A stretch of DNA of 38,446 nt from Candidatus Sifarchaeum marinoarchaea (GCA_016294985.1 JAECRW010000001.1:1-38446), one strand, 5' to 3'. Positions 3,739-37,894 are shown, counted from the stretch's first letter. Notes: generated by a model from the sequence alone, not told the origin. Numbers and translations: made by a program.

Positions 3739-5106
3739 CTATAAATCCTTAGGTGGCATTGGTATGTAGTTCTCTTTCATCAACAACTGAGTGATTTCTC
3801 TTGATTCTTTGATTATTTTTGATGCACGATCCCAGAGTTCTTGTCGTGTTCGTTTGACCCTAGCAATTCCTTGTTCCATAGCTTTTAGTGCAACAGCGGC
3901 TGCCTCACGTGGAAAGACCTCCCATTCGTCCATGTTAGGCACTATATAACCTTCGCTGAGTCCTTTATCCTCTGCTGTTTTTGCAATCTCTAGAGCAGCG
4001 GCGATAACCATTTCATCGGTAATTGTTTTCGCCTTAACATCAAGGGTTCCTCTGAAAATTCCAGGGAAGCCTAAGCTATTGTTGACTTGATTTTCGAAGT
4101 CAGATCGGCCAGTACCAACGATCCTCGCGCCTGCTTCTTTGCATTCCCATGGCCAAATTTCGGGAATTGGATTTGCACATGGGAACATGATCGCATCTGT
4201 CGCCATCGCTGCAACCCATTCTTTCTTAATTACACCAGGACCTGATTTACTCATAGCTACACAAACGTCAGTCTCTTTCATACACGCCTGCATATCGCCT
4301 TCTCGTCCTTCAGCATTAGTATTAAGGCATACCTGCCACTTGTAAGGATCTTTATCTTTGTTTGCTTCAAGATCTGATCGGTGCTTTCCAAGGATACCTT
4401 TGCGGTCGCAATACATCACGTTTTTAGGATTGATTCCAGCAGCCATCATAACTCGTCCAACAGCGATGTTTGCGGCACCAGCCCCGATCATGGATACAAG
4501 TACTTCATCCATTTTTTTACCAACAACTTTCAATGCATTTATGACTCCTGCAGTTACTATTGTTGCAGTTCCCTGTTGATCGTCATGCCAAACTGGAATT
4601 TCTACTTCTGGATCTGCTCGTAATGTATCTAAAATATAGAAGCACTTAGGCTTGGCAATATCTTCGAGGTTGATCCCGCCGAACGATGGCTGTATTAGTT
4701 TCACAACTTCTATGATCTTATCAGGATCTTTAGTATCTAGACAAAGAGGGACTGCATCAACACCGCCTAGATACTTAAAGAGCAGGGCTTTACCTTCCAT
4801 TACAGGCAATCCTGCTTTAGGACCGATATCACCAAGTCCCAAAACACGTGTTCCATCGCTTACAACGGCGACTGTATTCCATTTGTTCGTGTGTTCATAA
4901 ACCATTTCAGGATTTTTTTGAATGTCCTTACAAGGCTCAGCGACGCCAGGCGTATACCATATGGCGAAGTCATTAAAGTCCCTTATAGCACATTTTGCAA
5001 TGGTTTGAATCTTACCCTCGTAGAATGGATGGAGCACCATAGCATCTTTAGCTGGCTTATATGCCTTTTCTAATAACTCCTCAACAGTGAATTTCTTTTC
5101 AGTCAA
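3739..5106 (-). CDS. NAD(P)-dependent malic enzyme (short form)
   Basis: 455 aa. It carries the malic-enzyme signature VVSDGTRVLGLGDIGP and the dinucleotide fold MIGAGAANIAVG. Confidence 0.9.
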   Translation of the reverse strand: MTEKKFTVEELLEKAYKPAKDAMVLHPFYEGKIQTIAKCAIRDFNDFAIWYTPGVAEPCKDIQKNPEMVYEHTNKWNTVAVVSDGTRVLGLGDIGPKAGLPVMEGKALLFKYLGGVDAVPLCLDTKDPDKIIEVVKLIQPSFGGINLEDIAKPKCFYILDTLRADPEVEIPVWHDDQQGTATIVTAGVINALKVVGKKMDEVLVSMIGAGAANIAVGRVMMAAGINPKNVMYCDRKGILGKHRSDLEANKDKDPYKWQVCLNTNAEGREGDMQACMKETDVCVAMSKSGPGVIKKEWVAAMATDAIMFPCANPIPEIWPWECKEAGARIVGTGRSDFENQVNNSLGFPGIFRGTLDVKAKTITDEMVIAAALEIAKTAEDKGLSEGYIVPNMDEWEVFPREAAAVALKAMEQGIARVKRTRQELWDRASKIIKESREITQLLMKENYIPMPPKDL

Positions 5107-9991: not shown

Positions 9992-10627
9992 TTGACTAAA
10001 AATCAGATAGAAAAGATTAAAGGATTACACACACTCACTCATCTTCATACGTTATATCTTGAGGACAATCCAATAAAAGTGGAAGAGTTGTATTTAATAG
10101 GGAAAACTTCTCAGGAGATTGTGAGGTATTGTCTTAAACCCACCGCCCATGAAACCGCGACTCAAAAAAACGTGAACACGGATTATGTAACTGTTAAAGG
10201 CAATAAATTCTCTGTTGCATATGGGACTCTAGACCTTAGTGATAACGATATAACGGACATCAGTGAGATCAAGGGGTTAGATAATCTTCCGAACCTCCGA
10301 ATACTAATCCTTAATGATAATGAGATAACCGAGATCAAAGGACTAGAACATCTCATTCACCTGCAAGAACTACATCTAAATGATAATCTCATAAAAGAGA
10401 TTGGTGGGTTAGAGACACTCACTAATCTCCAATATCTAGATCTTAGGAATAATGAGATAAAAGAGATCAAAGGACTGGAGACGCTCACTAATCTCCAAAC
10501 CTTATATCTTGGTGGTAATCCCATACGGGACAGTGAGCGGCAATTAGTGATTAAATTCGCGCAGGAGATTGTGAAGCATTGTGAGGAAAATGTGGAACTG
10601 ACAAATGCGAGGTTGAAGGACTCGTGA
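9992..10627 (+). CDS. Leucine-rich-repeat protein (LRR-only, internalin-like 22-aa repeats); possibly 5'-truncated
   Basis: 211 aa. Repeats such as LxxLxxLxLxxNxIxEIxGLE recur, for example NLRILILNDNEITEIKGLEHLIHLQELHLNDNLIKEIGGLETLTNLQYLDLRNNEIKEIKGLETLTNLQTLYLGGNPI. The only usable start is a TTG, and the ORF opens in the middle of a repeat unit. Confidence 0.7.
   Translation: MTKNQIEKIKGLHTLTHLHTLYLEDNPIKVEELYLIGKTSQEIVRYCLKPTAHETATQKNVNTDYVTVKGNKFSVAYGTLDLSDNDITDISEIKGLDNLPNLRILILNDNEITEIKGLEHLIHLQELHLNDNLIKEIGGLETLTNLQYLDLRNNEIKEIKGLETLTNLQTLYLGGNPIRDSERQLVIKFAQEIVKHCEENVELTNARLKDS
10229..10525 (+). repeat. Tandem ~66-nt coding repeats (LRR units)
   Basis: The periodic 22-codon units are also visible at the DNA level, for example gagatcaaaggactagaacatctc... 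and gagatcaaaggactggagacgctc.... Confidence 0.8.
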
Positions 10628-26915: not shown

Positions 26916-28055
26916 TTATACTAAGTCATTTTGGAGAAGATGTATTCCTAGAAGTATTCTGTCTTCTACTTCGGGGAGCACTTTTTCGTCGCCCCTCGCC
27001 TTTCTTATTAATTCTCTTGCGCCCAGGAACAGGTTGTATGCCATGTGGAATCCAATCGGAACACCATGTGGGTATAAATCCGCTAAATCTTTCCTCACGA
27101 TTAATTTCAGTATCTGGTTATAACCTAACAGAAAGGTCAGAATATCCTTTCTAGTCTCATTTACAGTTCCAAATCGTTTAAACTCCTGTAAGCAGGGATA
27201 GGCAAAAAAGGTGCCAATATCTTCGAAGCGATCACTATCTCCGGGGTATAAATATTCTGGATCGATGATGTAAACGTTTTGTTTGTACACTGCAGACATG
27301 TCTTTAAGGACTGAGAAATCCAGATTGTCACGCTTAATACTCTGACCAAAGATTACATTGTCCATATGAAAGTCTGCAAAAATAAGGCTACCGCCAATTG
27401 AATTTCTCATTTTACTTAAAGAGAAATCTACAGCAAGAGAAATATCCCTCTTATGCTGATCTGATAGCGGCAAATCGATCAATACTAAAGCCATCAGACC
27501 CTTGTACTTTTCCACATCTATCCTATCTGTTTGCGATCCATGAATCGCCGCAAGGAGTTTTCCCGCAGTTTTGGCTTTAAACATTCTCTCTATCTTCGAT
27601 TCTGTGTACGTTTGTCCAATTATTCCTTCATAGATAAGGAGATGGGATTTTGGATCACTATAGATTAATTTTGGCGTCTTTAGGTTATCAAAATCATCAG
27701 GAAGTTGCTCTAGTCTACTTATCAATATTTTAGAGTTCTCCGCTTCTTGAATTACCTTCTGAGGGCTTGAAGAGAATTTTAATGCAAGCATTGTTTTGAA
27801 GCTGCCAGCATCTGTACCGAGATTGAGTGAAACAAGATGAATTTTGCCAGTACGTCCCATTTTTCGTATACTCGTTACGTCATTGAAGGTTATGAAACGG
27901 GGTCGTGACTGTGTGACTTTCTCGACGGCGGTTTTCAAATAATCTTCAAAACAACTGACAATTCTTGTTAGCAGTTCTGTGTATCGCATTTTTTCTCTGA
28001 TTTCGTTTGCCTTGCCATTCCACGCTTCGTCTTGCCTTGTCATCTCCTTTTCCAT
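26916..28055 (-). CDS. Protein-kinase-like fold phosphotransferase (APH/choline-kinase family)
   Basis: 379 aa. The catalytic loop is FADFHMDNVIF (H-x-D-x4-N), with a downstream YIIDPEY metal-binding Asp motif. Confidence 0.7.
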   Translation of the reverse strand: MEKEMTRQDEAWNGKANEIREKMRYTELLTRIVSCFEDYLKTAVEKVTQSRPRFITFNDVTSIRKMGRTGKIHLVSLNLGTDAGSFKTMLALKFSSSPQKVIQEAENSKILISRLEQLPDDFDNLKTPKLIYSDPKSHLLIYEGIIGQTYTESKIERMFKAKTAGKLLAAIHGSQTDRIDVEKYKGLMALVLIDLPLSDQHKRDISLAVDFSLSKMRNSIGGSLIFADFHMDNVIFGQSIKRDNLDFSVLKDMSAVYKQNVYIIDPEYLYPGDSDRFEDIGTFFAYPCLQEFKRFGTVNETRKDILTFLLGYNQILKLIVRKDLADLYPHGVPIGFHMAYNLFLGARELIRKARGDEKVLPEVEDRILLGIHLLQNDLV

Positions 28056-28223: not shown

Positions 28224-29096
28224 CTAAAAGTTTAGATATGTTATATTGCCTTCTGAATCAATTCTTGCACCTGCATGTCGATCCGCCCAGCAACTGAAGA
28301 CAATTCCAACAGGTAGGCTCGCAGGATGTCTTCCAGCAACTTCGATGTGGACTGATAAAACAGTTGGACCCTCGCCCAGTCCCATAACACCTATTTTCAA
28401 TTCATTTAGCGCTTTAAGTAGTTCCTTTTCTAATTCTGCGATCTTTAGGTTTGTATTATGTGTACCAACAGAACGAAGTAAGGCTTTTTTCGCCAAGTTC
28501 ATTGCTATATCCTCTCCTCCTCCTATCCCTATCCCTAAGAAGTAAGGAGGGCATCCTTTTGCTCCAGCGTCAACTACTGAATCAACAATAAATCTTTTTA
28601 TCCCCTTTAGCCCCTCTCCTGGTTTCAATAATCCTAGTTTTGAGATGTTTGTGCTCCCTCCGCCTTTTGGAAATGCAACGAGTTCTAACATATTGCTGTT
28701 AGGAACGATCTCCCAATAAATCCATGGGATGTAATCTGCTACATTATTGCCAGTATTTCCCTTGAAAAGATCGACAGCATTTGGTCTTAAGGGAACATCA
28801 TGTGTAGCTTTAATAGTAGCTTTTTTGAGGATATTTGGTAATTCTGCAATGATCGGAAAGTGTTCTCCCGCCTTAACGAAAAAAGAAACGACTCCCGTGT
28901 CCTGGCACATAGGAAGTATTGAAGTTTTTGCTGTTATGAAATCATCGACAATAGCTTGTAACTGTGTTTTGGCAACATCAGTTTGGCTCTCTTCTAAGGC
29001 TTTAAGTAGTGCTTTCTCAACGCTATCTGGAAGTTTAGTAACTGCTGATCTTAAGAGTTCAATAGCAACATTCTCAATGATTTCAGGAAGTTCCAT
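28224..29096 (-). CDS. Class I (Fe-S) fumarate hydratase / tartrate dehydratase family, alpha subunit
   Basis: 290 aa. It has PMCQDTGVV and GIGIGG, which are Fumerase N-domain motifs. Confidence 0.9.
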   Translation of the reverse strand: MELPEIIENVAIELLRSAVTKLPDSVEKALLKALEESQTDVAKTQLQAIVDDFITAKTSILPMCQDTGVVSFFVKAGEHFPIIAELPNILKKATIKATHDVPLRPNAVDLFKGNTGNNVADYIPWIYWEIVPNSNMLELVAFPKGGGSTNISKLGLLKPGEGLKGIKRFIVDSVVDAGAKGCPPYFLGIGIGGGEDIAMNLAKKALLRSVGTHNTNLKIAELEKELLKALNELKIGVMGLGEGPTVLSVHIEVAGRHPASLPVGIVFSCWADRHAGARIDSEGNITYLNF

Positions 29097-29099
29097 TAT

Positions 29100-29738
29100 T
29101 CATCCTCCAGGTTCGATTATGTGCAATTGTTTGTAAACTTTGGTGACATTCTCTCTAACACGGTCATTTACTTGTGCAAAGAGGTTGTTCCCATGTGAAT
29201 CTATGGCGACAACTAATGGACCAAAATCTTTTACTTCGTAAACCCAAAGGCATTCGGGCATGCCTAATTCTTGCAGCCAGAACACATCTTTTACTTTCTT
29301 AATTCGATTAGCCGCAAGAAGAGCAGCTCCTCCAGTAAATGCCCCATAAACGCATACTTCCTCTTGACAGGCTTTTGTAGTTCTCATGCCCATTCCACCC
29401 TTTCCAATAATAATCCGAGGATGGAAAGCTTTGATGAATTCTTCCTCAAAAATCTCCATACGTGCCGAAGTAGTAGGACCTGCAGCAATAACAGTCCATT
29501 CGCCAGTTTCACTTTTTTTCATCACTGGTCCACAATGGAAAACACCGATGCCTTCAAAATTTACAGGTAGTTTTTTACCTGCATTATGCAATTCTAAAGC
29601 TTTCAAATGCGCTTCGTCTCTTGCGGTAACAATAGTCCCTGAAACGTATAGTGTGTCTCCAACTTTAAGTCGTCTTACAGCTTCTTCAATTATTGGCGTT
29701 GTCAAATGAAATTCACCCATATGTACCACCTTTTTCAA
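29100..29738 (-). CDS. Class I (Fe-S) fumarate hydratase family, beta subunit
   Basis: 212 aa. It has GTIVTARDEAH, IIGKGGM and AFTGGAALLAA, which are Fumerase C-domain motifs. It ends 3 nt before the alpha gene start. Confidence 0.9.
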   Translation of the reverse strand: MKKVVHMGEFHLTTPIIEEAVRRLKVGDTLYVSGTIVTARDEAHLKALELHNAGKKLPVNFEGIGVFHCGPVMKKSETGEWTVIAAGPTTSARMEIFEEEFIKAFHPRIIIGKGGMGMRTTKACQEEVCVYGAFTGGAALLAANRIKKVKDVFWLQELGMPECLWVYEVKDFGPLVVAIDSHGNNLFAQVNDRVRENVTKVYKQLHIIEPGG

Positions 29739-29814: not shown

Positions 29815-30129
29815 GAGAGGAGGTGTTATACAATAACGTTAATCGCTTCAGGGACTCTCGGACACGGAGAGACCAAAGATTTTGAGGTGGAATTACGAGA
29901 TGGGGTAAAGTACAGCATTTATGTTAACCCTACTGAACCTCATGTTGATTTCGATCTCTATATCTATGACGAGAATGGTAATTTGATTGAGTATGATAGC
30001 TCAGCTGATAGTGATGCATATTGTTTCATTATACCTAATCACACGGGTTCATTCAGATTATTGATCAAATCAGAAGCAGGTTTTAGTAAGTATTACATCC
30101 GTGTTGTCCAAGAACGAAAATTAGATTAA
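29815..30129 (+). pseudogene. Isolated PPC (pre-peptidase C-terminal)-like domain, probably a gene remnant
   Basis: The open frame ERRCYTITLIASGTLGHGETKDFEVELRDGVKYSIYVNPTEPHVDFDLYIYDENGNLIEYDSSADSDAYCFI...GSFRLLIKSEAGFSKYYIRV has the D-x-D-L-Y-[LI]-Y-D core of PPC domains. There is no ATG; the only start is a GTG at 29887, inside the domain. I see no signal peptide and no catalytic domain. Confidence 0.4.
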
Positions 30130-30374
30130 TTAGGAGGTTTTGGTAAATATTACATCTATGTTATCCAAGAAGGTTAGAATTATCTAATAAACTAAAGTTA
30201 ATAACGACTAGGAATTTATGAGATACTGCCAAGAAAAAACTAAAGATAAAATTTGCTTATTTCTAGAACTTCCTCTACTCGTTCTTGCATGAAAACGAAG
30301 TGAATTAGGGAATTTGGAAGGAAAAGACACTTTACAAAGCCTATGGTCATATATGAAACTTTAAAAGTTGATAC

Positions 30375-30411
30375 ACGTAAAGAATATTGACAAACGTAAA
30401 GTTTAAATAAA
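30375..30411 (+). promoter_or_regulatory. Two ACGTAAAG octamers 19 nt apart followed by a TTTAAATAA TATA-like box, ~70 nt upstream of the second Hdr operon
   Basis: The octamers are at 30375-30382 and 30394-30401, and the A/T box at 30402-30410. The pattern is read from sequence only. Confidence 0.2.
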
Positions 30412-30481: not shown

Positions 30482-30892
30482 ATGTCTAAGACGATCAGAT
30501 TAGATTCCACGGAAGCAGCGAAATTTGCTGCAAAGATCCAAGAGAGGAGTGGGGAACCGATCGACATGTGCTTTCAATGTGGAGAGTGTTCCTCTGCATG
30601 CCCAGTATCTTCAGATATGGATCTAATGCCTTCTACATTGGTTCGCTTTACTCAATTGGGACTGAAAGATGAATTAATCAATGCAAAGACCATCTGGGTA
30701 TGCGCTTCGTGTTTTCATTGTGTAACTCGATGTCCAAAGGGGATTGATATAGCCAAAGTAGCTGAAGCTCTTCGACAAGAATTACTGCGGAAAAAACTAG
30801 ATTATGTTGAGGTACGAGACCTTTCAATGGAAGAGAGGCAAGAAATTCCACAAATTGCAATCATTTCTAACTTGCGCAAATTTTCAAGATGA
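30482..30892 (+). CDS. hdrC: HdrC-like 2x[4Fe-4S] ferredoxin subunit (second copy)
   Basis: 136 aa. It has CFQCGECSSACP and CASCFHCVTRCP. Confidence 0.85.
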   Translation: MSKTIRLDSTEAAKFAAKIQERSGEPIDMCFQCGECSSACPVSSDMDLMPSTLVRFTQLGLKDELINAKTIWVCASCFHCVTRCPKGIDIAKVAEALRQELLRKKLDYVEVRDLSMEERQEIPQIAIISNLRKFSR

Positions 30893-30905
30893 GATGGTGT
30901 AAGTC

Positions 30906-31808
30906 GTGAAGATCCCATATTTTCCGGGTTGCTCCTTAAAAACCATAGGCGAAGGATTCGAAAAGTCAGCTATCGCATCAGCTGCAATTTTAGACTTTGA
31001 ACTTGAAGAACTACCGAGATGGGTCTGTTGTGGAACGGTTAGTTCTCTCACTACTGATGATTTAATGCACCATCTTGCTCCAATACGAAACCTTATACGT
31101 GTTGAAGACATAAAGGAAACACAGTTAGTCACTTTGTGTTCTGTCTGCTATAGCACACTTAAACGGTCCAATGCGCTCGTGAAGAATGATCCCGAGAAAC
31201 TAAAAACTATGAACCAATTCATGGACAAAGAAAATGAATATCAAGGCAGCGTCAAGGTATTACACTTCCTCGAACTATTAAGGGAGATGGGCTTTGACAA
31301 AATAAAAGAGAAGGTAAAAAAGCCTCTAAGGGGATTAACGCTTTCACCGTATTACGGTTGCTTACTAGTAAGACCGAAAGAATTTGGCATTGATAATCCC
31401 GAAGATCCTACAATATTACAGGAGTTGACCAAGGCGCTCGGTGCAGATGTGATAGACAACCCTTATCAACTTAAATGTTGTGGGAGTTATCATACAGTAG
31501 ATAAACCTAACCTAGTAGCCGATTTAGGCTACAAAATATTGACCTATGCGAGAAATTCAGGGGCAGATGCCTTAGTTCTAAGCTGTCCCCTATGTGCATT
31601 TAATCTGGATAATAGACAACGAGAGATAAAACGTCAATATCCTGATTTTGTTGAAATCCCCATCTTATATTTTACTCAGTTAATGGCACTAGCATTTGAT
31701 CTAGGCGAAGAAAAACTTGGGTTTGATATTCATTATGTTGATCCTGTTCCTTTATTGAAAGAAAAGCAATTACTGATCGATTCTTTACCTTTAATTAAAG
31801 AAAAATAA
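30906..31808 (+). CDS. hdrB: HdrB-like / SdhE-like protein with two CCG domains (second copy)
   Basis: 300 aa with a GTG start. Both cysteine sets are present: GC...CCGTV...CSVC and GC...CCGSY...CPLC. Confidence 0.9.
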   Translation: MKIPYFPGCSLKTIGEGFEKSAIASAAILDFELEELPRWVCCGTVSSLTTDDLMHHLAPIRNLIRVEDIKETQLVTLCSVCYSTLKRSNALVKNDPEKLKTMNQFMDKENEYQGSVKVLHFLELLREMGFDKIKEKVKKPLRGLTLSPYYGCLLVRPKEFGIDNPEDPTILQELTKALGADVIDNPYQLKCCGSYHTVDKPNLVADLGYKILTYARNSGADALVLSCPLCAFNLDNRQREIKRQYPDFVEIPILYFTQLMALAFDLGEEKLGFDIHYVDPVPLLKEKQLLIDSLPLIKEK

Positions 31809-31830
31809 AACCAAATGAGAGGGGTCAAAC

Positions 31831-32535
31831 TTGGAAGAAGAAGCAGAAAAAGAGAAAATGGTGAAGGTATATATCATGGGACGCGAGTTTGAGGTCCCCG
31901 CCACTCTAAATATCGTAAAAGCATTCGAATATGCTGGTTATAGATTTGTACGAGGAATTGGTTGCAGGGGAGGATATTGCGGAGCTTGCGCCACAGTTTA
32001 TCGATTTAAAGATGATTACAGGCTTAATTTTGCCTTGGCTTGCCAGAAGGCAGTAGAAGATGGCATGTATCTTACTATACTGCCATTTGTTCCTGCTGAG
32101 AAGGCGCAATATGAACTGGATAAACTAAAACCTAGAGGAACTGTATTGCTTGAACTTTATCCGGAGATCGCACGCTGTGTGGCGTGCAATACATGCACCA
32201 AAGCCTGTCCACAAGAATTAGAGGTAATGGATTATGTTCAAGCTGCTATTCGTGGTGACATAAAAGAATTATCTAATTTGAGTTTTGACTGTATTCAATG
32301 CGGTTTGTGTGCTATGAGATGCCCTGCAGAGATTGTTCCTTATAATGTAGGACAACTTGCACGTCGATTATATGGGAAATATGTCGCACCCCAGGCAAAA
32401 CACACTCATGCACGCGTTGAGGAAATCCATGCGTGTGTATTTGACGAAGAACTTGACAATTATAGCATATTAGTAAAAGAGGATGTTGAAAAACTAAAGA
32501 AGATATATGTGGAGCGAGAAATTAAGGTGGGATAG
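31831..32535 (+). CDS. SdhB/FrdB-like iron-sulfur protein ([2Fe-2S] + 2 cubane motifs)
   Basis: 234 aa. It has CRGGYCGACATVY...LAC, CVACNTCTKACP and CIQCGLCAMRCP. The track starts at a TTG; the ATG at 31858 is an alternative. Confidence 0.85.
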   Translation: MEEEAEKEKMVKVYIMGREFEVPATLNIVKAFEYAGYRFVRGIGCRGGYCGACATVYRFKDDYRLNFALACQKAVEDGMYLTILPFVPAEKAQYELDKLKPRGTVLLELYPEIARCVACNTCTKACPQELEVMDYVQAAIRGDIKELSNLSFDCIQCGLCAMRCPAEIVPYNVGQLARRLYGKYVAPQAKHTHARVEEIHACVFDEELDNYSILVKEDVEKLKKIYVEREIKVG

Positions 32536-32539
32536 ATAG

Positions 32540-34189
32540 ATGGAACGTGGTTATCCCGATTACATGCTGGAGTCAATTGAACTCGTGAAACAGACGCGAG
32601 AAAGACGTCTAAAAGAAATTCCTGAACTTATGACACTTGAGGAAAGAGAGGCGATCCTAAGACAATATCATCCTGATTACAAAGAAGGTGGAAAGCGCAC
32701 CGTAAAGGTCGGTGTGAACGCTGGAGAACCCATGCCACATGAGGCAGCAGACCTGATTGAGGCTTATCCTCTTATCGAACCAGAACAAATCGATCTGTCG
32801 ACTATAGATTACGATTCAGACATTTTGATCATTGGCGCTGGTGGAGCTGGATTAACAGCTGCATTGTGGGCTGTAAACTCTGGTGCTGACGTTGATCAAA
32901 TACTAATGGTCACAAAATTGCGTATGGGCGATTCAAACTCGAAAATGTCTCAAGGTGGTATTCAAGCTGCAGATTGTGAGGACGATAATCCTGTTCTACA
33001 TTATTTAGATGTTATTGGGGGCGGACACTTCACAAACGACCCTGAATTAGTCAAGTGGCTAGTTCGGGAAGCCCCTATGATCATAAAATGGCATGAAGAA
33101 TTAGGTATAATGTACGATAAGGATGAGGAAGGTTGCATGTTTGTCGCACCAGGTGGAGGGACTTGCAGAAAGAGAATGCATTCTTGTAAAGACTATACTG
33201 GCATGGAGATCGTACGCGTTTTGATGGATGAGGCATTGAATCTAGATATACCGACACTTGAATTTACAAGTGCTGTGGAGTTACTTATGGATGATGCAGG
33301 TAAAGTTGCTGGAGCAGTTCTTTGGGATATGGAAAAAGAAGATTATTTCATTGCAAGAGCGAAAGCAACATTGATGGCAACTGGTGGTTTCGGACGACTC
33401 CATATTCAAGAATTTGCTACCACGAACCATTATGGCGCCACCGCAGACGGTCTGGTTATGGCAAACCGAGTAGGTGCGAGAATCATTGACATGGACTCAG
33501 TTCAGTATCATCCAACTGGAAGTTCATATCCTGAACAAATCGTAGGTCTTCTGTGCACTGAGAAATTAAGAGGAAGAGGCGCTCAGCCCGTAAACAAGTA
33601 TGGCGAAGAGTTCGTGTATCCGCTTGAGCCTAGAGATGTCGAATCAGCAGCTCTTATCAGAGAATGTGCTAAAGGAAATGGGCTTGTAACCCCGACTGGC
33701 ATGCCTGGAGTATGGCTGGACACTCCTCTGATCGATATTCTTCATGGTGAAGGCACTATCGAAAAGGAATTTTCAGCCATGTCTCTAAAGTACAAACGGT
33801 TTGACATTGACATGACACAAGATCCTATTTTTGTTTATCCAACGCTCCACTTCCAGAATGGCGGAATCGTAATTAACGAGCGTACTGGGGTTGTAGGTGT
33901 TCCCGGACTCTTTGCATCTGGTGAAACAACAGGCGGAGTTCATGGCAAGAACAGATTGATGGGTAACTCAATCTTGGACTATTGTGTGTACGGAAGACGA
34001 ATGGGCATCTACGCAACAGAATACGTCAAAAACGCAACAGTGGGCAAATTAAACTTAGATCACGTAACCAAATATACGAAATTATTAGAGGACGCTGGGG
34101 GAATTCCTCGCACTAGAAAGGCGCCTATTCTCCTCCCCGAGTATAGAGGCGAAAGGACAATATCCCATGCTTTAGCATTGCTCGGATAA
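32540..34189 (+). CDS. Succinate dehydrogenase/fumarate reductase-family flavoprotein (TfrA/FrdA-like)
   Basis: 549 aa. It has DILIIGAGGAGLTAA, SVQYHPTG and GLFASGETTGGVHGKNRLMGNS. The GxGxxG motif begins only at about residue 98. Confidence 0.9.
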   Translation: MERGYPDYMLESIELVKQTRERRLKEIPELMTLEEREAILRQYHPDYKEGGKRTVKVGVNAGEPMPHEAADLIEAYPLIEPEQIDLSTIDYDSDILIIGAGGAGLTAALWAVNSGADVDQILMVTKLRMGDSNSKMSQGGIQAADCEDDNPVLHYLDVIGGGHFTNDPELVKWLVREAPMIIKWHEELGIMYDKDEEGCMFVAPGGGTCRKRMHSCKDYTGMEIVRVLMDEALNLDIPTLEFTSAVELLMDDAGKVAGAVLWDMEKEDYFIARAKATLMATGGFGRLHIQEFATTNHYGATADGLVMANRVGARIIDMDSVQYHPTGSSYPEQIVGLLCTEKLRGRGAQPVNKYGEEFVYPLEPRDVESAALIRECAKGNGLVTPTGMPGVWLDTPLIDILHGEGTIEKEFSAMSLKYKRFDIDMTQDPIFVYPTLHFQNGGIVINERTGVVGVPGLFASGETTGGVHGKNRLMGNSILDYCVYGRRMGIYATEYVKNATVGKLNLDHVTKYTKLLEDAGGIPRTRKAPILLPEYRGERTISHALALLG

Positions 34190-34199
34190 AAAGAGATGA

Positions 34200-36629
34200 A
34201 TGATAATGGCTAAGAAAATTGGTGCATTCATCTGCCAATGCGGCGGTAATATTTCCAATGTTGTTGACGTTGACAAAGTGGCAAAGGCGCTCGACGACGA
34301 AGATATTGAATTGGCAGAAATCGAAACGTACCTTTGCTCCGAACCCTCAATTGAGCGAATGAAAGAGGTCATTGAAGAAAAAGGGCTTGATCGACTTGTT
34401 TTAGCTTGCTGTACTCCGAAGATGCATTTGAAGAAGTTTCAGAGAGTACTCAAAGAAGCTGGAATAAATCCCGCACTTGTCGATGTTATTAACGTTAGAG
34501 AACACTGCAGTTGGGTTCATGAAAACGACCCTGAGGGTGCAACTCTAAAAGCCACCGATCTTGTTCGCGGAGGAATTAAAAGAATAGAAAAATCAGTACC
34601 TCTCGAAACAAAAGAAATTGATGTTACACCAAAAGTTTTAGTCGTTGGAGGAGGAATAGCAGGAATTATAGCCTCTCTTCGTGTGGCAGAGAATGGTATA
34701 GACTGCTATCTAGTTGAAAAAGAGCCAAGCATAGGCGGCCATATGATTCAATACCCAAAAGTGTTCCCGACACTTGATTGTAGTCAGTGTATTTTAACTC
34801 CTAAGTTAGGAGATGTCTGGGATTCGTCTATTCAGCTTTCCACCCTATCAGAAATAGAAGACATTTCTGGAACACTTGGAAACTGGAAGGTAAAGTTAAA
34901 ACAAAAAGCACGATATATTGATATTGAAAAATGTACAAGTTGCGGAGATTGTGCCAGATATTGTCCAGTAAAATGTATCAATGAATTTAATGTTGATTTA
35001 GATAAACGAAGTACAGCTTATATTCCTTTTCTTCAAGCAATTCCTCCAGTTTATACAATAGATCCTGAGCACTGCCTCTATTTTAAGTATGGGATTTGTA
35101 AGATTTGTCAAAAAATCTGTTCTGCAGACGCCGTAAAGTTAGATGACGCCGTAAAGTTTGCCGAAATAAACACAGGCGCTATAATTTTAGCAACTGGTTA
35201 TGATCTTTATGACCCAAGTGTTTTAGGAAGATACCTCTACGGCAAACATCCAAATGTCCTAACGTCACTACAAATGGAGCGAATGCTGGATATTACAGGA
35301 CCAACAACCAGCCGAATTGTTCGTCCAAGCGACGGAAAAAGTGTAAAAAAGGTCGCCTTTGTGCTTTGTGCGGGATCACGAAATAATGAAGCTGGAGCAA
35401 ATAGGGATGAAGGTGTTCCGTATTGCTCTACTGTATGTTGTCTCTATGCTCAGAAGCAAGCGATACTGTTGCGAAAACTCGATATTGACGTATGGATCCA
35501 CTACATCGACATTAGATCGCCAGGAACAAAATATGAAGACTTTTATCATCATACACAAGAGTTAGGGGTCAATTTCATCAAAGGTAAGATTTCTGAAATT
35601 ATGCCAACTCCCAATAATGATGGAAGACTTATAGTCCGTGCAGAAGATATGCTCATTAATAGGATGATTGAAAATGAAGTCGATCTTGTGGTTCTCTGTC
35701 CACCAATTCTGCCAAGCGAAGGAACTGAGGAGTTGGCACAGAAGTTAAAGGTTCCATTAAACGAATACAAATTCATATTAGAAAGTCATCCTAAATTAGA
35801 TCCGTTAGCGACAAAGAGGGAAGGAATTTTTGCAGCAGGAATGGCTACGGGACCAAAAGATATCCAGACAACAGTCTCTGAAGCTGAAGGGGCAGCCATG
35901 AAGGCCGTGAATTTTGTAAGTGCGAAAAAAGAAATCGAACCAAATAAAGCGTATATTATTCCTGAATTTTGTAATGGCTGTCGAGAATGCATTAAAATCT
36001 GTCCAGAAGAGGCAATTACAATTATAGACGAAAAAGCAGTGATCAATGATCTAGCGTGTACAGGTTGTGGATTATGTGTTCCTATATGCTCAGAGAATGC
36101 AATCGATATGCAAAGTTATTCAGAGGAACAATTACTCGCGCAGATTAAAGGAACGTTGGCGGATTCAAAGGCTGAACTGAAAATTTTGGTGTTCGTGGAA
36201 AAAGAACTGGTGTATACCGCAGCGGACATTGCAGGTGTTTCTAGACTAATCTATCCTAGCAGTGTTAGGTTTATACCGCTTCCAAGTAATGCGAGATTGA
36301 AACTTTCATACATTCTTTACGCTTTTGCGAATGGAGCAGACGGTGTCATGTTTTTGGAGGCGCCCGAAGAGGAAGGTCCTGTTCCAGAAGCACATAAGGC
36401 TGCAGAAAAAATAATTGAGGAATACCAAGAAGTGCTTGAGGACGACTATGATCTTGACAGTTCGCGTCTATGGTTTAGTCGAATCTTTGTGCCCGATTGG
36501 AGAAAACTCGCTACTGTTTTTGATTCATTCCATCAATTGATCGTGGATCTCGGCCCGTTGACCGATGAAGAACGTAAAGAATTAATGCAAGCGTGGTCTA
36601 AGGGGAAGAAGTTACCACAAGTTCAATAA
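34200..36629 (+). CDS. hdrA: HdrA-like flavoprotein with a C-terminal MvhD-like domain lacking its cysteines
   Basis: 809 aa. It has IGAFICQCGGNISN...ACCTPKMH...VREHCSWVH, VLVVGGGIAGIIAS, FPTLDCSQCIL and ferredoxin motifs (CTSCGDCARYCP, CKICQKICS, CNGCRECIKICP, CTGCGLCVPICS). The tail ILVFVEKELVYTAADIAGVSRL...GADGVMFLEAPEEEG aligns to MvhD. Confidence 0.9.
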   Translation: MIMAKKIGAFICQCGGNISNVVDVDKVAKALDDEDIELAEIETYLCSEPSIERMKEVIEEKGLDRLVLACCTPKMHLKKFQRVLKEAGINPALVDVINVREHCSWVHENDPEGATLKATDLVRGGIKRIEKSVPLETKEIDVTPKVLVVGGGIAGIIASLRVAENGIDCYLVEKEPSIGGHMIQYPKVFPTLDCSQCILTPKLGDVWDSSIQLSTLSEIEDISGTLGNWKVKLKQKARYIDIEKCTSCGDCARYCPVKCINEFNVDLDKRSTAYIPFLQAIPPVYTIDPEHCLYFKYGICKICQKICSADAVKLDDAVKFAEINTGAIILATGYDLYDPSVLGRYLYGKHPNVLTSLQMERMLDITGPTTSRIVRPSDGKSVKKVAFVLCAGSRNNEAGANRDEGVPYCSTVCCLYAQKQAILLRKLDIDVWIHYIDIRSPGTKYEDFYHHTQELGVNFIKGKISEIMPTPNNDGRLIVRAEDMLINRMIENEVDLVVLCPPILPSEGTEELAQKLKVPLNEYKFILESHPKLDPLATKREGIFAAGMATGPKDIQTTVSEAEGAAMKAVNFVSAKKEIEPNKAYIIPEFCNGCRECIKICPEEAITIIDEKAVINDLACTGCGLCVPICSENAIDMQSYSEEQLLAQIKGTLADSKAELKILVFVEKELVYTAADIAGVSRLIYPSSVRFIPLPSNARLKLSYILYAFANGADGVMFLEAPEEEGPVPEAHKAAEKIIEEYQEVLEDDYDLDSSRLWFSRIFVPDWRKLATVFDSFHQLIVDLGPLTDEERKELMQAWSKGKKLPQVQ

Positions 36630-37894
36630 AGTGTAGCTTCCCCATCATCAATTTTGAAGTCTACTGTTTCTTTCATTCTTATCGAGAATAATAGCAGGCC
36701 AGCTAAGGGTAGAATAGCCATAAGAGCCATCATTGTGGCGAGACCGAAAAGTTCAGCAAGGAATCCGGCTATGAGTGGTCCAATAGTAGCACCAATGCCC
36801 AAACTCGTCATAATAAGCCCCATTCCTTCACCTCTATTCTCTCTTGGGGCCACATCTGCAACAATTGTTGTCGCAGAGACCATAACTGATGCATAACCGA
36901 AAGCAACGAGAACCTGAGATGGAATCAATGCAACAGGTGTAGTGGAAAGGCCGAACCAAACAGCACTAATTCCACTGGCGGCGAGTCCCATTATCATGAC
37001 TGGTTTACGCCCAATTCGGTCACAGCAGAGTCCCATAGTCCACATGAAAATCGCTTGTGTCCCCATATTGAGCGCATAAAGTAATCCAACCTGTGCTGGT
37101 GTCCCGCCCACAGCAACTACATACAAAGGAAATAGGCTGTACAGGCCCAGAAGTCCTCCATGGCGGAGTATGAGCGTGACATAAACGGTTGATAGTCCTC
37201 GTTTTCGAACAAACTCATCTTTTTTGAACATCACTGTAAATCTTCGTTTCAGATCATTAACTACCTTTCTAAGGTTAGCAGGCTCATTACTGGGATTTAC
37301 TTGTGTTTCTAAGGCCTTGAAATCTGAAAAAACAAAGATAACAATAATTGCTGCAAGAAATGTTATGAAAGCAGCTGCAATGAAAGGGAATGTTATGGAA
37401 AATAATTCAACCAAAAAACCGCTTGCTAGGGCGCCAACAAACCATCCTGATGAGAGTGCCGCGTTCATTATGCCCATACCACTACCTCGTTTTTCCCCGT
37501 TTAGGTTCGAGGCGATGGCTAGTGCAATGGGAGTAAATGCTCCAACTGCAATTCCTCTGATCAAGCTCAAGCCAATGAGTTCGTAAACGTTCTTGGAGAA
37601 GTAAAAGCCTATCAAGATGAATCCTGAAGCAAAGAGACCACCCATCAAGAAAGGTCTTCTTTTTCGAAGAGTGTCGCTAAGAGAACCCCATATTACGGTA
37701 AATAAGAGGTAAGTGAGGAAAAATGACGAGAACAATATGCTGATTTCAATGAGATTTGCACCTAATTGTTCCGCGTAAAGTGGCAGAATAGGTGGAACAA
37801 TCATGTACGCAAAATAAGCAAAAAAAGCTGTAAAGTAAAGTGGTATCAGTTCTCTCCTCATAATACTACCTTTTCCTAAAACCCATAGAATCAA
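36623..37894 (-). CDS. MFS transporter
   Basis: 423 aa with about 12 hydrophobic helices. MFS motif A-like loops (LSDTLRKRRPFLMGG and CDRIGRKPVMIMG) occur in each half. Confidence 0.9.
   Translation of the reverse strand: MILWVLGKGSIMRRELIPLYFTAFFAYFAYMIVPPILPLYAEQLGANLIEISILFSSFFLTYLLFTVIWGSLSDTLRKRRPFLMGGLFASGFILIGFYFSKNVYELIGLSLIRGIAVGAFTPIALAIASNLNGEKRGSGMGIMNAALSSGWFVGALASGFLVELFSITFPFIAAAFITFLAAIIVIFVFSDFKALETQVNPSNEPANLRKVVNDLKRRFTVMFKKDEFVRKRGLSTVYVTLILRHGGLLGLYSLFPLYVVAVGGTPAQVGLLYALNMGTQAIFMWTMGLCCDRIGRKPVMIMGLAASGISAVWFGLSTTPVALIPSQVLVAFGYASVMVSATTIVADVAPRENRGEGMGLIMTSLGIGATIGPLIAGFLAELFGLATMMALMAILPLAGLLLFSIRMKETVDFKIDDGEATLY

What the first reader, a model, noticed from the sequence alone, without database searches (positions are those of the whole stretch)
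30482..36629. HdrC-HdrB-SdhB-SdhA-HdrA operon: candidate HdrA-coupled soluble fumarate reductase
Seen in the sequence:
- Five same-strand genes are separated by only 13, 22, 4 and 10 nt.
- The genes are an HdrC-like ferredoxin, an HdrB-like protein with both CCG cysteine sets intact, an SdhB/FrdB-like Fe-S protein, an SdhA/FrdA/TfrA-like flavoprotein and an 809-aa HdrA.
- I see no membrane anchor (SdhC/D-type) and no hydrogenase or formate dehydrogenase partner in the window.

Established knowledge:
- CCG-domain proteins partner SdhAB in type E succinate:quinone reductases (SdhE).
- They are fused into TfrB of methanogen thiol:fumarate reductase.
- HdrA is the flavin-based electron-bifurcating subunit of HdrABC-MvhAGD.

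Inference: HdrA may wire the fumarate/succinate couple to a low-potential carrier such as ferredoxin, by bifurcation or confurcation. I do not recognise this as a characterised enzyme.

Context supports a malate to fumarate to succinate branch. The split class-I fumarase lies immediately upstream and divergent, and a malic enzyme is at 3739-5106.
Basis: partly seen in the sequence, partly recalled or inferred. Interest (0 to 1): 0.75.

Follow-up and report, generated by a model that had tools for sequence, protein, structure and literature searches.

The report
Hdr-linked soluble fumarate reductase operon
An Asgard archaeon carries a five-gene operon that joins a membrane-free fumarate-reducing enzyme to heterodisulfide-reductase (Hdr) electron-transfer subunits; the same cluster recurs in hundreds of uncultured anaerobes, often with a hydrogenase, but no one has tested it biochemically.

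Summary
Five + strand genes at 30482-36629 encode an HdrC-like protein, an HdrB-like protein with two CCG motifs, an Fe-S protein, an Frd-type flavoprotein and an HdrA. The gaps are 13, 22, 4 and 10 nt. No subunit has a membrane helix. A split fumarase lies upstream and divergent.

The flavoprotein keeps every fumarate-reductase catalytic residue. It has Asn in place of the covalent-FAD His, lacks the SdhA C-terminal domain and carries a conserved 93-aa N-terminal extension. It sits in a lineage separate from NadB and from SdhA/FrdA/TfrA.

Relatives occur in at least 588 species-level genomes. In the 83 loci examined:
- the Fe-S gene is adjacent in 80 of 80 loci;
- HdrCB lies directly upstream in 54 of 74;
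- an HdrA is on the same strand in 42 of 45;
- an Mvh hydrogenase is present in 17 of 45;
- fumarase or malic enzyme is nearby in 23 of 45.

Best reading: fumarate is the high-potential acceptor of an HdrABC-type complex that probably bifurcates electrons. One caveat is new. The MvhD-like domain fused to HdrA here has lost all its cluster cysteines, so the electron donor in this organism is unknown.

Similar clusters have been proposed in metagenome papers to work this way. I found no biochemical study. I rate it a new variant of a known kind, of moderately high interest.

The parts
30482..30892 (+). HdrC-like ferredoxin subunit (136 aa, two [4Fe-4S] motifs; shorter than canonical HdrC)
   Evidence: Pfam Fer4_8/Fer4_17. 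NCBIfam HdrC 75 bits and QmoC N-terminus 77 bits, both below cutoff. CxxCxxCxxxCP motifs at residues 30 and 74. Orthologue sits upstream of HdrB in 54 of 74 loci.
30906..31808 (+). HdrB-like subunit with two intact CCG motifs (predicted sites for two non-cubane [4Fe-4S] clusters)
   Evidence: Pfam CCG in two stretches. NCBIfam HdrB 176 bits and SdhE (MFR anchor) 149 bits, both below cutoff. 154 bits over residues 1-280 to HdrB of 8rvu. Motifs confirmed. It is 29% identical to the second HdrB in this window, but 40-59% identical to the HdrBs next to FeS-flavoprotein pairs in other phyla.
31831..32535 (+). Fe-S subunit: N-terminal [2Fe-2S]-type domain plus two [4Fe-4S] motifs (SdhB/TfrB-N-like architecture)
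   Evidence: Weak Pfam Fer2 plus Fer4 dicluster. The TfrB model matches residues 17-82. Cys pattern. Adjacent to the flavoprotein gene in 80 of 80 loci. Fused to the flavoprotein in P0121.
32540..34189 (+). Fumarate-reductase-type flavoprotein (549 aa): non-covalent FAD, 93-aa conserved N-terminal extension, no SdhA-type C-terminal domain
   Evidence: FAD_binding_2 at residues 94-478 and no PF02910. TfrA model 291 bits against a cutoff of 718, covering model positions 6-420 of 546. Catalytic residues conserved and Asn133 at the covalent-His position. AF2 model has pTM 0.82; its best fold match is E. coli FrdA at E = 4e-29. Distinct clade.
34200..36629 (+). HdrA (809 aa): full HdrA core with a fused MvhD-like C-terminal domain that has no cysteines
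   Evidence: 589 bits to HdrA of 8rvu over residues 5-655. Residues 658-790 match MvhD chains. NCBIfam HdrA2 797 bits against a cutoff of 1100. No Cys after residue 630. Orthologues at 52-57% identity sit directly downstream of the flavoprotein in Bathyarchaeia.
30402..30409 (+). TATA-like box TTTAAATA about 73 nt upstream of hdrC, preceded by a repeated ACGTAAAG motif; candidate operon promoter
   Evidence: The sequence is conserved in L086 and L046. It has a unique match in the window. The promoter role is an inference.
29100..29738 (-). Class I fumarase beta subunit, divergent from the operon
   Evidence: Pfam Fumerase_C at 2e-47. NCBIfam TIGR00723 at 208 bits against a cutoff of 145. The same divergent position is seen in Bathyarchaeia and Asgard relatives.
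28224..29096 (-). Class I fumarase alpha subunit
   Evidence: Pfam Fumerase at 8e-84. NCBIfam fumarate hydratase NF004885 at 289 bits against a cutoff of 276.
3739..5106 (-). Malic enzyme: distant here, but immediately downstream of HdrA in Bathyarchaeia orthologous clusters
   Evidence: Pfam malic plus Malic_M. A malic enzyme is adjacent in L004, L012, L025, L032 and other loci.
36623..37894 (-). MFS transporter convergent with hdrA; a conserved neighbour in the closest Asgard relatives (possible dicarboxylate carrier, unproven)
   Evidence: Pfam MFS_1 at 9e-61. Same position in L086 and L087. No specific NCBIfam assignment.

Best explanation
The operon encodes a soluble, multi-subunit fumarate reductase.

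Catalytic module. The flavoprotein (non-covalent FAD) and its Fe-S partner ([2Fe-2S] plus two [4Fe-4S]) form the fumarate-reducing unit.

Wiring. This module connects through HdrB (two non-cubane clusters) and HdrC (two [4Fe-4S]) to the flavin of HdrA.

Proposed mechanism. HdrA's FAD receives electron pairs from a mid-potential donor and splits them. One electron runs downhill through HdrC, HdrB, the Fe-S subunit and the FAD to fumarate (E0' about +30 mV). The other is pushed uphill to ferredoxin through HdrA's ferredoxin domains. Fumarate thus takes the place that CoM-S-S-CoB has in methanogen Mvh-Hdr.

Donor. In many relatives the donor is H2, supplied by an MvhAGD hydrogenase encoded in the same cluster. 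In this Asgard archaeon, and in the Bathyarchaeia version, the hydrogenase is absent and the fused MvhD-like domain has lost its cluster ligands. The donor is therefore unknown. Candidates are F420H2 (as for Methanosarcina HdrA2B2C2, from my own knowledge), another docking dehydrogenase, or ferredoxin alone.

Pathway. With fumarase and malic enzyme, the enzyme completes a pyruvate/malate to fumarate to succinate branch that serves as an electron sink.

Shown: gene content, cofactor motifs, catalytic residues and conserved synteny. Inferred: complex formation, direction of electron flow and bifurcation.
For: Fumarate chemistry:
- All Frd/Sdh catalytic residues are invariant across the family (H324, T340, R365, H437, R472; E341 is at least 90% conserved).
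- The fold matches E. coli FrdA (E = 4e-29).
- Asn replaces the covalent-FAD His. From established knowledge of FrdA H44 mutants and soluble Frds, this goes with fumarate reduction rather than succinate oxidation.
- Fumarase or malic enzyme lies within 10 kb in 23 of 45 loci from many phyla.

Coupling to Hdr:
- Gaps of 4-22 nt within the operon.
- The Fe-S gene is adjacent in 80 of 80 loci, HdrCB is directly upstream in 54 of 74, and an HdrA is on the same strand in 42 of 45.
- The cluster's HdrB is 40-59% identical to FeS-adjacent HdrBs in other phyla, but only 29% identical to the paralogue 9 kb away.
- Characterised TfrB fuses equivalents of the 2Fe-2S, dicluster and CCG modules. The TfrB model matches all three window proteins.
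- P0121 is a natural FeS-flavoprotein fusion.

Module logic:
- A 42%-identical relative pairs the same FeS-flavoprotein unit with a NuoF-like NADH module instead of Hdr. FeS-flavoprotein therefore looks like the output end.

Bifurcation:
- In 17 of 45 loci the order is HdrA-MvhD-MvhG-MvhA-HdrC-HdrB-FeS-flavoprotein. This is a complete Mvh-Hdr set with a single HdrBC pair, followed by the reductase.
- The HdrA aligns end to end with HdrA of solved bifurcating complexes.
- By my calculation from standard potentials, 2 H2 + fumarate + Fd(ox) gives about -69 kJ, more favourable than the heterodisulfide reaction.
Against: - No complex, activity or transcript has been observed. Everything rests on sequence and synteny.
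- In this window the MvhD-like domain has no Cys, and 13 of the 16 downstream HdrAs I examined also have none; the other three are L018 (1 Cys), L077 (a shorter ORF) and L066 (32% identical, a different type). The canonical electron entry into HdrA is therefore missing and no donor module lies nearby.
- A non-bifurcating ferredoxin:fumarate reductase would fit equally well here.
- A few genomes carry only the four core genes without an adjacent HdrA (L002 and L016). HdrA is therefore not obligatory for the core.
- HdrB keeps a complete disulfide-reducing cluster site, so a thiol/disulfide intermediate cannot be excluded.
- All five proteins score below the NCBIfam equivalog cutoffs.
- The 83 loci all carry close orthologues of the flavoprotein (57% identity or more) and may owe part of their synteny to transfer of the whole cluster.
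Confidence: 0.55

Rival explanations
1. A non-bifurcating ferredoxin (or other single donor):fumarate oxidoreductase. HdrA, HdrC and HdrB act only as an electron wire and scaffold from reduced ferredoxin to the FeS-flavoprotein module. Fumarate is a plain electron sink, with no energy coupling at this enzyme.
For: The MvhD-like domain is cluster-less in the window, and 13 of the 16 downstream HdrAs examined also have no Cys there. No donor module is encoded nearby. HdrA keeps its C-terminal ferredoxin domain, with motifs at residues 591 and 620, which could accept electrons from ferredoxin. The same FeS-flavoprotein module works with a simple NuoF-like input in L091.
Against: Keeping a full 809-aa HdrA with all its cluster domains just as a wire is uneconomical. 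Relatives with a complete Mvh-Hdr set look like true bifurcating units. Ferredoxin to fumarate would waste roughly 480 mV.
Confidence: 0.2
2. A split thiol:fumarate reductase (Tfr-like). HdrB oxidises a thiol pair (CoM-SH plus CoB-SH, or an unknown thiol or protein dithiol), and the electrons pass to fumarate. HdrA (with or without Mvh) re-reduces the disulfide at the same or another HdrBC, so a thiol/disulfide couple mediates between them.
For: TfrA and TfrB are the best-scoring characterised models for the flavoprotein, Fe-S, HdrC-like and HdrB-like proteins. Both CCG motifs are intact. A four-gene version without an adjacent HdrA exists in L002 and L016. MAG papers annotate such genes as thiol:fumarate reductase syntenic with Hdr (PMC9635834, PMC8542988).
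Against: The Hermodarchaeota paper leaves open whether a CoM-S-S-CoB cycle operates in Asgard archaea, which lack MCR (PMC8163825). Most host lineages are not methanogens and, to my knowledge, are not known to make CoM or CoB. Only one HdrBC pair is present in the Mvh-Hdr-Frd clusters, so a free mediator is unnecessary. The flavoprotein scores far below the TfrA cutoff and lies outside the clade that holds the TfrA-cutoff-passing P0197.
Confidence: 0.15
3. The enzyme works in the oxidative direction. Succinate oxidation feeds electrons into Hdr (confurcation with reduced ferredoxin, or coupling to H2 evolution), as part of a succinate to fumarate to malate to pyruvate route in amino-acid catabolism.
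For: [quoted passage not shown] Malic enzyme and fumarase could run in that direction.
Against: The covalent-FAD His is replaced by an invariant Asn. From established knowledge, non-covalent FAD enzymes of this family oxidise succinate poorly. Succinate (+30 mV) cannot drive reduction of protons or disulfides, even when confurcated with ferredoxin (mean about -210 mV), except at extreme temperature or H2 levels.
Confidence: 0.05
4. The flavoprotein acts on a different substrate (L-aspartate, another enoate such as mesaconate or urocanate, or a sulfur compound as in AprA), and the link to fumarate is coincidental.
For: NadB models score nearly as well as SdhA models (242 against 268 bits). The family is a separate lineage with no characterised member.
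Against: The dicarboxylate-binding and proton-donor residues are invariant. The NadB Glu121 equivalent is Gly. NadB and urocanate reductase have no Fe-S partner. AprA is not among the hits. Fumarase is a recurrent neighbour in archaea and bacteria.
Confidence: 0.05

Closest known systems
Thiol:fumarate reductase TfrAB of Methanothermobacter (Heim et al. 1998, cited in PMC8163825)
   Same: It is soluble with no membrane anchor. A flavoprotein with the Frd active site pairs with a [2Fe-2S] domain, dicluster domains and two CCG domains. TfrA and TfrB are the best-scoring characterised profiles for four of the five proteins.
   Different: TfrB is a single polypeptide. Here its modules are spread over three proteins, with an extra dicluster. 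The flavoprotein lacks the C-terminal roughly 126 positions of TfrA, has a 93-aa N-terminal extension, scores 291 against a cutoff of 718, and lies outside the clade containing a bona fide TfrA. An HdrA is part of the operon. To my knowledge the hosts are mostly not known to make CoM or CoB.
MvhAGD-HdrABC electron-bifurcating heterodisulfide reductase (structures 5odc, 8rvu, 7bkb)
   Same: HdrA, HdrB and HdrC align over nearly their full length with the solved subunits. In many relatives MvhD, MvhG and MvhA are in the same cluster.
   Different: Two extra subunits (Fe-S protein and Frd-type flavoprotein) follow HdrB, implying fumarate rather than CoM-S-S-CoB as terminal acceptor. In the window version there is no hydrogenase and the MvhD-like domain has no cluster ligands. 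HdrC is truncated (136 aa).
Type E succinate:quinone reductase / MFR (SdhABE, CCG-domain 'anchor' SdhE)
   Same: A Frd/Sdh-type flavoprotein and Fe-S subunit combine with an HdrB-like CCG protein. The SdhE model scores 149 bits on the HdrB-like protein. The Fe-S subunit has a full second [4Fe-4S] motif in place of [3Fe-4S]; from my own knowledge this is also described for type E enzymes.
   Different: There is no quinone-related or membrane-associated partner. HdrC and HdrA are present. FAD is non-covalent. The flavoprotein has no C-terminal domain.
HdrA2B2C2 of Methanosarcina acetivorans (F420H2- and ferredoxin-dependent; from my own knowledge, Yan et al. 2017)
   Same: HdrA with a fused MvhD-like C-terminus and no hydrogenase. 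The NCBIfam HdrA2 model is the best hit (797 bits).
   Different: The score is below the cutoff of 1100. The MvhD-like domain here is cysteine-free. The operon adds the fumarate-reductase module.
Proposed but uncharacterised Hdr-linked fumarate reductases in MAG and symbiont papers: tfrAB with flxABCD-hdrABC in Ca. Endoriftia and Thioflavicoccus (PMC6315080, PMC13147460); TFR with Mvh and Hdr in Ca. Celaenobacter (PMC8542988); Tfr syntenic to an Hdr-like complex in Mnemosynellales (PMC9635834)
   Same: The same idea: fumarate reduction is wired to an Hdr complex that may bifurcate to ferredoxin. L043 from Ca. Mnemosynella belongs to the very family analysed here.
   Different: Those reports are annotations made in passing. 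None defines the split four-gene core, the distinct flavoprotein lineage, the alternative input modules or the cluster-less MvhD variant. The Endoriftia version uses an NADH-oxidising Flx module.
Soluble five-subunit NADH-dependent fumarate reductase of Hydrogenobacter thermophilus (Miura et al. 2008, cited in PMC13147460)
   Same: A soluble, irreversible, multi-subunit fumarate reductase with A and B subunits plus accessory electron-input subunits. From memory its accessory subunits include Hdr-like proteins; I could not verify this here.
   Different: Its donor is NADH through a dedicated subunit, and no HdrA is reported. Its genes are scattered in the genome.

Membership tests
Thiol:fumarate reductase TfrAB | TfrA-type flavoprotein that meets the curated TfrA model over its full length | tested here: not met
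   NF004900 scores 290.9 bits against a cutoff of 718 and matches only model positions 6-420 of 546. A true TfrA representative (P0197, 765 bits) falls in a different clade.
Thiol:fumarate reductase TfrAB | TfrB: one polypeptide carrying [2Fe-2S], a dicluster and two CCG domains | tested here: not met
   The domains are present but split over three genes (Fe-S, HdrC-like, HdrB-like). The TfrB model hits each of them only partially, at 33-40 bits.
Thiol:fumarate reductase TfrAB | CoM-SH plus CoB-SH as electron donors | not testable with these tools
   This needs an enzyme assay. To my knowledge the host lineages are mostly not known to make CoM or CoB.
Fumarate reductase / succinate dehydrogenase flavoprotein superfamily (catalytic competence) | Active-site His, Thr-Glu, proton-donor Arg, His and Arg (E. 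coli SdhA H242, T254/E255, R286, H354, R399) | tested here: met
   H324, T340/E341, R365, H437 and R472 align with them and are invariant or nearly so in 18 family members.
Complex II (SdhAB/FrdAB with anchor) | Covalent 8-alpha-histidyl FAD (His45 in SdhA, His44 in FrdA) | tested here: not met
   Asn133 occupies this position and is invariant in the family.
Complex II (SdhAB/FrdAB with anchor) | C-terminal Succ_DH_flav_C domain (PF02910) | tested here: not met
   There is no Pfam hit. The alignment ends about 150 residues before the SdhA, FrdA and NadB C-termini.
Complex II (SdhAB/FrdAB with anchor) | Membrane anchor (SdhCD type) or SdhE/SdhF pair | tested here: not met
   None of the five proteins has a transmembrane-like segment. 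No SdhC/D genes lie in the window. An SdhE-like CCG protein is present, but together with HdrC and HdrA.
HdrABC heterodisulfide reductase | HdrA with an FAD domain and the full set of Fe-S domains | tested here: met
   589 bits over residues 5-655 to HdrA of 8rvu. However, all NCBIfam HdrA equivalogs score below cutoff (797 against 1100 at best).
HdrABC heterodisulfide reductase | HdrB with two CX31-39CCX35-36CXXC motifs, and HdrC with two [4Fe-4S] motifs | tested here: met
   Motifs at residues 9-81 and 152-230 of HdrB, and at residues 30 and 74 of HdrC. The curated scores are below cutoff.
HdrABC heterodisulfide reductase | MvhD [2Fe-2S] electron entry with an MvhAG hydrogenase (or another donor module) | tested here: not met
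   The FlpD-like domain has no Cys, while separate MvhD proteins in relatives have 5-6. No hydrogenase lies in the window. The feature is met in 17 of 45 related loci.
HdrABC heterodisulfide reductase | CoM-S-S-CoB reduction and ferredoxin reduction by flavin-based bifurcation | not testable with these tools
   This requires biochemistry.
L-aspartate oxidase (NadB) | NadB-specific Glu121 and grouping with NadB | tested here: not met
   Gly aligns with Glu121. The NadB model scores 242 against a cutoff of 453. The lineage is separated from the NadB clade in 99 of 100 bootstraps. It has an Fe-S partner subunit instead of NadA.
APS reductase (AprA) | Sequence or structural similarity to AprA, with an AprB partner | tested here: not met
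   No AprA entry or model appears in the listed NCBIfam, PDB-sequence or Foldseek hits.
Soluble NADH-dependent fumarate reductase (Hydrogenobacter type) | Similarity to FrdA-E of H. thermophilus and an NADH-binding subunit | not tested
   No sequence was available here. The window has no NAD(P)H-binding subunit in the operon. A 42% relative (L091) has a NuoF-like partner.

The most novel reading that the evidence does not exclude
This operon may represent a large, unrecognised class of flavin-based electron-bifurcating enzymes in which fumarate, not a heterodisulfide, is the high-potential acceptor of HdrABC, with or without Mvh. If so, it would explain what the ubiquitous Hdr and Mvh genes do in many organisms that, to my knowledge, are not known to make CoM or CoB (Bathyarchaeia, Asgard, Thermoplasmatota, Bipolaricaulota, Thermotogota). 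It would also give these sediment organisms an energy-conserving fumarate 'respiration' without membrane or quinone. The hydrogenase-free version with the cluster-less MvhD domain would use a still unknown donor.
Probability: 0.4. Interest if true: 0.8.

Novelty: new variant of a known kind. Interest (0 to 1): 0.62.

Why it matters
Hdr and Mvh genes are widespread in non-methanogenic anaerobes, including Asgard archaea and Bathyarchaeia. Their physiological 'heterodisulfide' has never been identified; the Hermodarchaeota paper, for example, leaves this open (PMC8163825).

A dedicated fumarate-reducing module sits immediately after HdrB in at least 54 loci from many phyla. That gives a concrete acceptor that can be tested. 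If confirmed, it would add fumarate to the short list of acceptors that drive ferredoxin reduction by bifurcation. It would also describe a quinone-free, membrane-free form of fumarate 'respiration' and improve metabolic models of abundant sediment archaea.

The family is tight (57% identity or more across domains) and modular, with Hdr, Mvh-Hdr or NuoF-like inputs. That makes it well suited to heterologous expression and structural work.

Tried and rejected
- Bacterial promoter and terminator consensus scans gave counts equal to shuffled sequence, and the host is an archaeon. They are uninformative.
- tRNA and Rfam scans of the window found nothing.
- Nine literature searches and fifteen papers were used looking for a biochemical characterisation. 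Only synteny-based proposals turned up. The phrase 'bifurcating fumarate reductase' returns no paper.
- Several papers that held the search terms proved irrelevant: PMC11176372, PMC9586279, PMC7325909, PMC12542636, PMC6461988 and PMC9239135.
The subunit make-up of the Hydrogenobacter enzyme is therefore quoted only from PMC13147460 and from memory.
- NadB and AprA assignments were considered and rejected on active-site, profile and tree evidence.
- Succinate oxidation was considered and rejected on the non-covalent FAD and on thermodynamics.
- AlphaFold-Multimer of the five subunits was not available. Only the flavoprotein monomer was modelled.
- The NJ tree is distance-based with midpoint rooting. 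It supports separateness from NadB and SdhA/FrdA/TfrA but not a deeper placement.

Full report
**1. The observation**

- 30482-30892 (136 aa)
- 30906-31808 (300 aa)
- 31831-32535 (234 aa)
- 32540-34189 (549 aa)
- 34200-36629 (809 aa)

The gaps are 13, 22, 4 and 10 nt. One caveat concerns the third ORF, which starts at TTG. Its first ATG is at 31858, which would make the second gap 49 nt.

Profile searches confirm the gene identities and a motif scan gives the cofactor sites:
- HdrC-like protein: two CxxCxxCxxxCP motifs.
- HdrB-like protein: both CCG motifs complete (C9/C41C42/C78xxC81 and C152/C191C192/C227xxC230).
- Fe-S protein: a plant-ferredoxin-type Cys pattern (C45/50/53/71) plus two complete 4Fe-4S motifs.
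- Flavoprotein: FAD_binding_2 (E = 1e-68).
- HdrA: aligns over residues 5-655 with HdrA of solved Mvh-Hdr complexes (589 bits), followed by an MvhD-like domain.

None of the five has a membrane-helix-like stretch, whereas the neighbouring MFS gene has many. The split class I fumarase (28224-29738, - strand) and the malic enzyme (3739-5106, - strand) are confirmed. No hydrogenase or formate dehydrogenase occurs among the ORFs of 110 aa or more.

**2. Host**

The closest flavoprotein genes lie in MAGs labelled Candidatus Borrarchaeota (94% identity) and Promethearchaeota (93%). The window also encodes Roadblock/LC7 and LRR proteins. It therefore comes from an Asgard archaeon. Contigs from relatives at 91% identity have the same fumarase, five-gene and MFS layout.

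**3. The flavoprotein**

I aligned it with E. coli SdhA, FrdA and NadB, taken from NC_000913.
- The catalytic set is kept: His324 (SdhA H242), Thr340-Glu341 (T254/E255), Arg365 (the proton donor, R286), His437 (H354) and Arg472 (R399). These residues are invariant or nearly so in 18 diverse family members.
- The His that carries covalent FAD in SdhA and FrdA is an invariant Asn133.
- The NadB-specific Glu121 aligns with Gly.
- The protein ends about 150 residues before SdhA, FrdA and NadB. It therefore lacks the C-terminal domain, and there is no PF02910 hit.
- It has instead a conserved 93-aa N-terminal extension that is confidently modelled as two helices plus short strands.

The AF2 model (pTM 0.82) matches E. 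coli FrdA best (E = 4e-29). From established knowledge of FrdA H44 mutants and soluble fumarate reductases, non-covalent FAD goes with fumarate reduction and poor succinate oxidation.

**4. Where the flavoprotein belongs**

Among 1.84 billion representatives clustered at 50% identity, the whole family collapses into one cluster. The next relatives are 36-48% identical.

I built an NJ tree of 102 sequences (92 representatives of at least 395 aa, six family members, the window protein and the three E. coli references) and ran 100 bootstraps on an 86-sequence subset:
- The family is recovered in 100 of 100 replicates.
- The family, together with other N-extended forms and a set of roughly 400-aa short forms, is separated from both NadB and SdhA/FrdA/TfrA in 99 of 100.
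- P0197, the one labelled representative that passes the curated TfrA cutoff (765 against 718 bits), lies in the SdhA/FrdA side of the tree.

All N-extended forms score best on the TfrA model but far below its cutoff. The protein is therefore not a TfrA, SdhA, NadB or AprA. It is a separate lineage with Frd chemistry.

**5. Conservation of the gene cluster**

The family occurs in at least 588 species-level genomes. Named hosts include:
- Archaea: Bathyarchaeia, Thermoplasmatota, Methanofastidiosum, Theionarchaea, Culexarchaeia, Mnemosynella, Njordarchaeota.
- Bacteria: Bipolaricaulota/Acetothermia, Thermotogae, Aerophobetes, WOR-3 and others.

I mapped the window proteins, plus MvhD, MvhG and MvhA from L001, onto the fetched loci by tblastn and tallied 83 non-duplicate loci:
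- The Fe-S gene is adjacent to the flavoprotein gene in 80 of 80 loci.
- HdrC-HdrB lies directly upstream in 54 of 74.
- Among the 45 loci with at least 7 kb upstream and 2.6 kb downstream, an HdrA is on the same strand in 42.
- In those 45, an MvhA is present in 17, and fumarase or malic enzyme in 23.

Four layouts recur:
- (A) HdrA-MvhD-MvhG-MvhA-HdrC-HdrB-FeS-flavoprotein.
- (B) Divergent fumarase, then HdrC-HdrB-FeS-flavoprotein-HdrA, followed by malic enzyme in Bathyarchaeia. This is the layout of the window and its relatives.
- (C) HdrA-MvhD-HdrC-HdrB-FeS-flavoprotein, without a hydrogenase.
- (D) The four core genes alone (L002, L016).

The cluster's HdrB is 40-59% identical to FeS-adjacent HdrBs in other phyla. 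It is only 29% identical to the second HdrB 9 kb away in the same window. It therefore belongs to a dedicated, co-inherited set.

**6. Evidence for physical coupling and modularity**

- The TfrB model matches pieces of all three Fe-S proteins. Characterised TfrB is thus a natural fusion of equivalent modules.
- P0121 (727 aa) is a natural fusion of the Fe-S subunit (34% identity) with the flavoprotein (48%).
- A bacterial relative at 42% identity (L091) has FeS, flavoprotein and a NuoF-like NADH-binding protein, with overlapping stop and start codons and no Hdr.

The FeS-flavoprotein pair therefore behaves as a portable fumarate-reducing output module. It plugs into different electron-input modules.

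**7.

The MvhD-like domain fused to HdrA (about residues 658-790) contains no cysteine. The last Cys of the protein is at residue 630. I examined the tails of 16 HdrAs that lie downstream of the flavoprotein gene in related loci:
- 13 also have none.
- L018 has one.
- L077 is a shorter ORF and is not comparable.
- L066 is only 32% identical and has a different, Cys-rich type of tail.

By contrast, separate MvhD proteins in layouts A and C have 5-6 Cys, and the MvhD domain of the window's other HdrA-like protein has 5. The [2Fe-2S] cluster that passes electrons from the hydrogenase to HdrA in solved complexes cannot be bound here. In layout B, loss of the hydrogenase goes together with decay of its docking cluster. 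The electron donor of the window's enzyme is unknown.

**8. Mechanism**

Most likely (about 0.55 for the whole statement), the operon encodes an Hdr-linked soluble fumarate reductase in which fumarate takes the role of the heterodisulfide. HdrA's flavin splits electron pairs. The exergonic branch runs through HdrC, HdrB, the Fe-S subunit and the FAD to fumarate. The endergonic branch runs to ferredoxin.

My confidence in the sub-claims is as follows:
- fumarate reductase, about 0.85;
- functional coupling to HdrBC and HdrA, about 0.8;
- bifurcation, about 0.5.

For the Mvh-linked relatives, by my calculation from standard potentials, 2 H2 + fumarate + Fd(ox) gives about -69 kJ.

For the window version, candidate donors are:
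- F420H2 (by analogy with HdrA2B2C2, from my own knowledge);
- a partner encoded elsewhere;
- ferredoxin alone, which would make the enzyme non-bifurcating.

The rivals are:
- a plain ferredoxin:fumarate reductase (0.2);
- a split thiol:fumarate reductase with a thiol mediator (0.15);
- succinate oxidation (0.05);
- another substrate (0.05).

With fumarase and malic enzyme, the enzyme completes a pyruvate/malate to succinate branch.

**9. What is already known**

I found no biochemical or structural study of this arrangement. The idea itself has been raised from synteny several times:
- tfrAB interspersed with flxABCD-hdrABC in tubeworm symbionts, with a proposed bifurcating complex (PMC6315080). 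A 2026 survey restates this and cites co-expression (PMC13147460).
- TFR clustered with fumarase, Mvh and Hdr in Ca. Celaenobacter (PMC8542988).
- A thiol:fumarate reductase syntenic to an Hdr-like complex in Mnemosynellales (PMC9635834). L043 from that lineage is a member of this family.
- SdhA near HdrA2B2C2 in Culexarchaeia (PMC9723716).

The Hydrogenobacter five-subunit NADH-dependent enzyme is the nearest characterised soluble multi-subunit fumarate reductase. I could not compare it here.

**10. Verdict**

The finding is a new variant of known kinds (Tfr, Hdr, complex II type E). It is widespread and uncharacterised, and it bears on the open question of what Hdr and Mvh reduce in non-methanogens. 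Interest is 0.62.

Noticed in passing
window 17669-22651 (+): There is a second Hdr cluster. It encodes a 1173-aa protein made of two HdrA-like halves fused to a cysteine-bearing MvhD domain (NCBIfam HdrA2 1199 bits in three stretches), followed by HdrC (177 aa) and HdrB (298 aa). No acceptor or donor gene is adjacent, so its substrate is unknown.
   Followed up: partly
window 36171-36569 (residues 658-790 of HdrA, 34200-36629): The MvhD-like domain fused to HdrA has no cysteine. Of the 16 downstream HdrA tails examined in related loci, 13 also have none. It is a relic docking domain that cannot bind the [2Fe-2S] cluster.
   Followed up: yes
window 29830-30129 (+): A small conserved ORF lies in the 743-bp fumarase-hdrC spacer (listed as 29887-30129, 80 aa, GTG start). 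Its conservation shows a codon-like pattern in three Asgard relatives. It has a weak PPC (pre-peptidase C-terminal) domain hit at E = 4e-4. It was not called as a gene on the related contigs.
   Followed up: partly
window about 30370-30410 (+): The motif ACGTAAAG occurs twice, directly before a TTTAAATA box about 73 nt upstream of hdrC, and is conserved in L086 and L046. This may be a regulator site plus an archaeal TATA box.
   Followed up: partly
L091 7366-10891: A bacterial relative (42% identity) encodes FeS, flavoprotein and a NuoF-like (Complex1_51K) protein with overlapping stop and start codons. It is a candidate NADH-dependent soluble fumarate reductase built on the same output module.
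   Followed up: partly
L093 5250-7433 (P0121): A natural fusion joins the Fe-S subunit and the flavoprotein in one 727-aa protein.
   Followed up: yes
window 26916-28055 (-): A 379-aa ORF with no Pfam match lies next to the fumarase. A 375-aa ORF without domains sits at the same position in the 91%-identity relatives L086 and L087.
   Followed up: no
window 22802-23236 (+), 9992-10627 (+), 13132-17274 (-): A Roadblock/LC7 protein, an LRR protein and a 1380-aa TPR-containing protein are encoded here. Such genes are typical of Asgard genomes and support the host assignment.
   Followed up: no
loci L145-type short forms (P0145, P0151, P0155 and others): A sister group of roughly 400-aa flavoproteins lacks both the N-terminal extension and the C-terminal domain. 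They score equally on the NadB and TfrA models. Their function and gene context were not examined.
   Followed up: no
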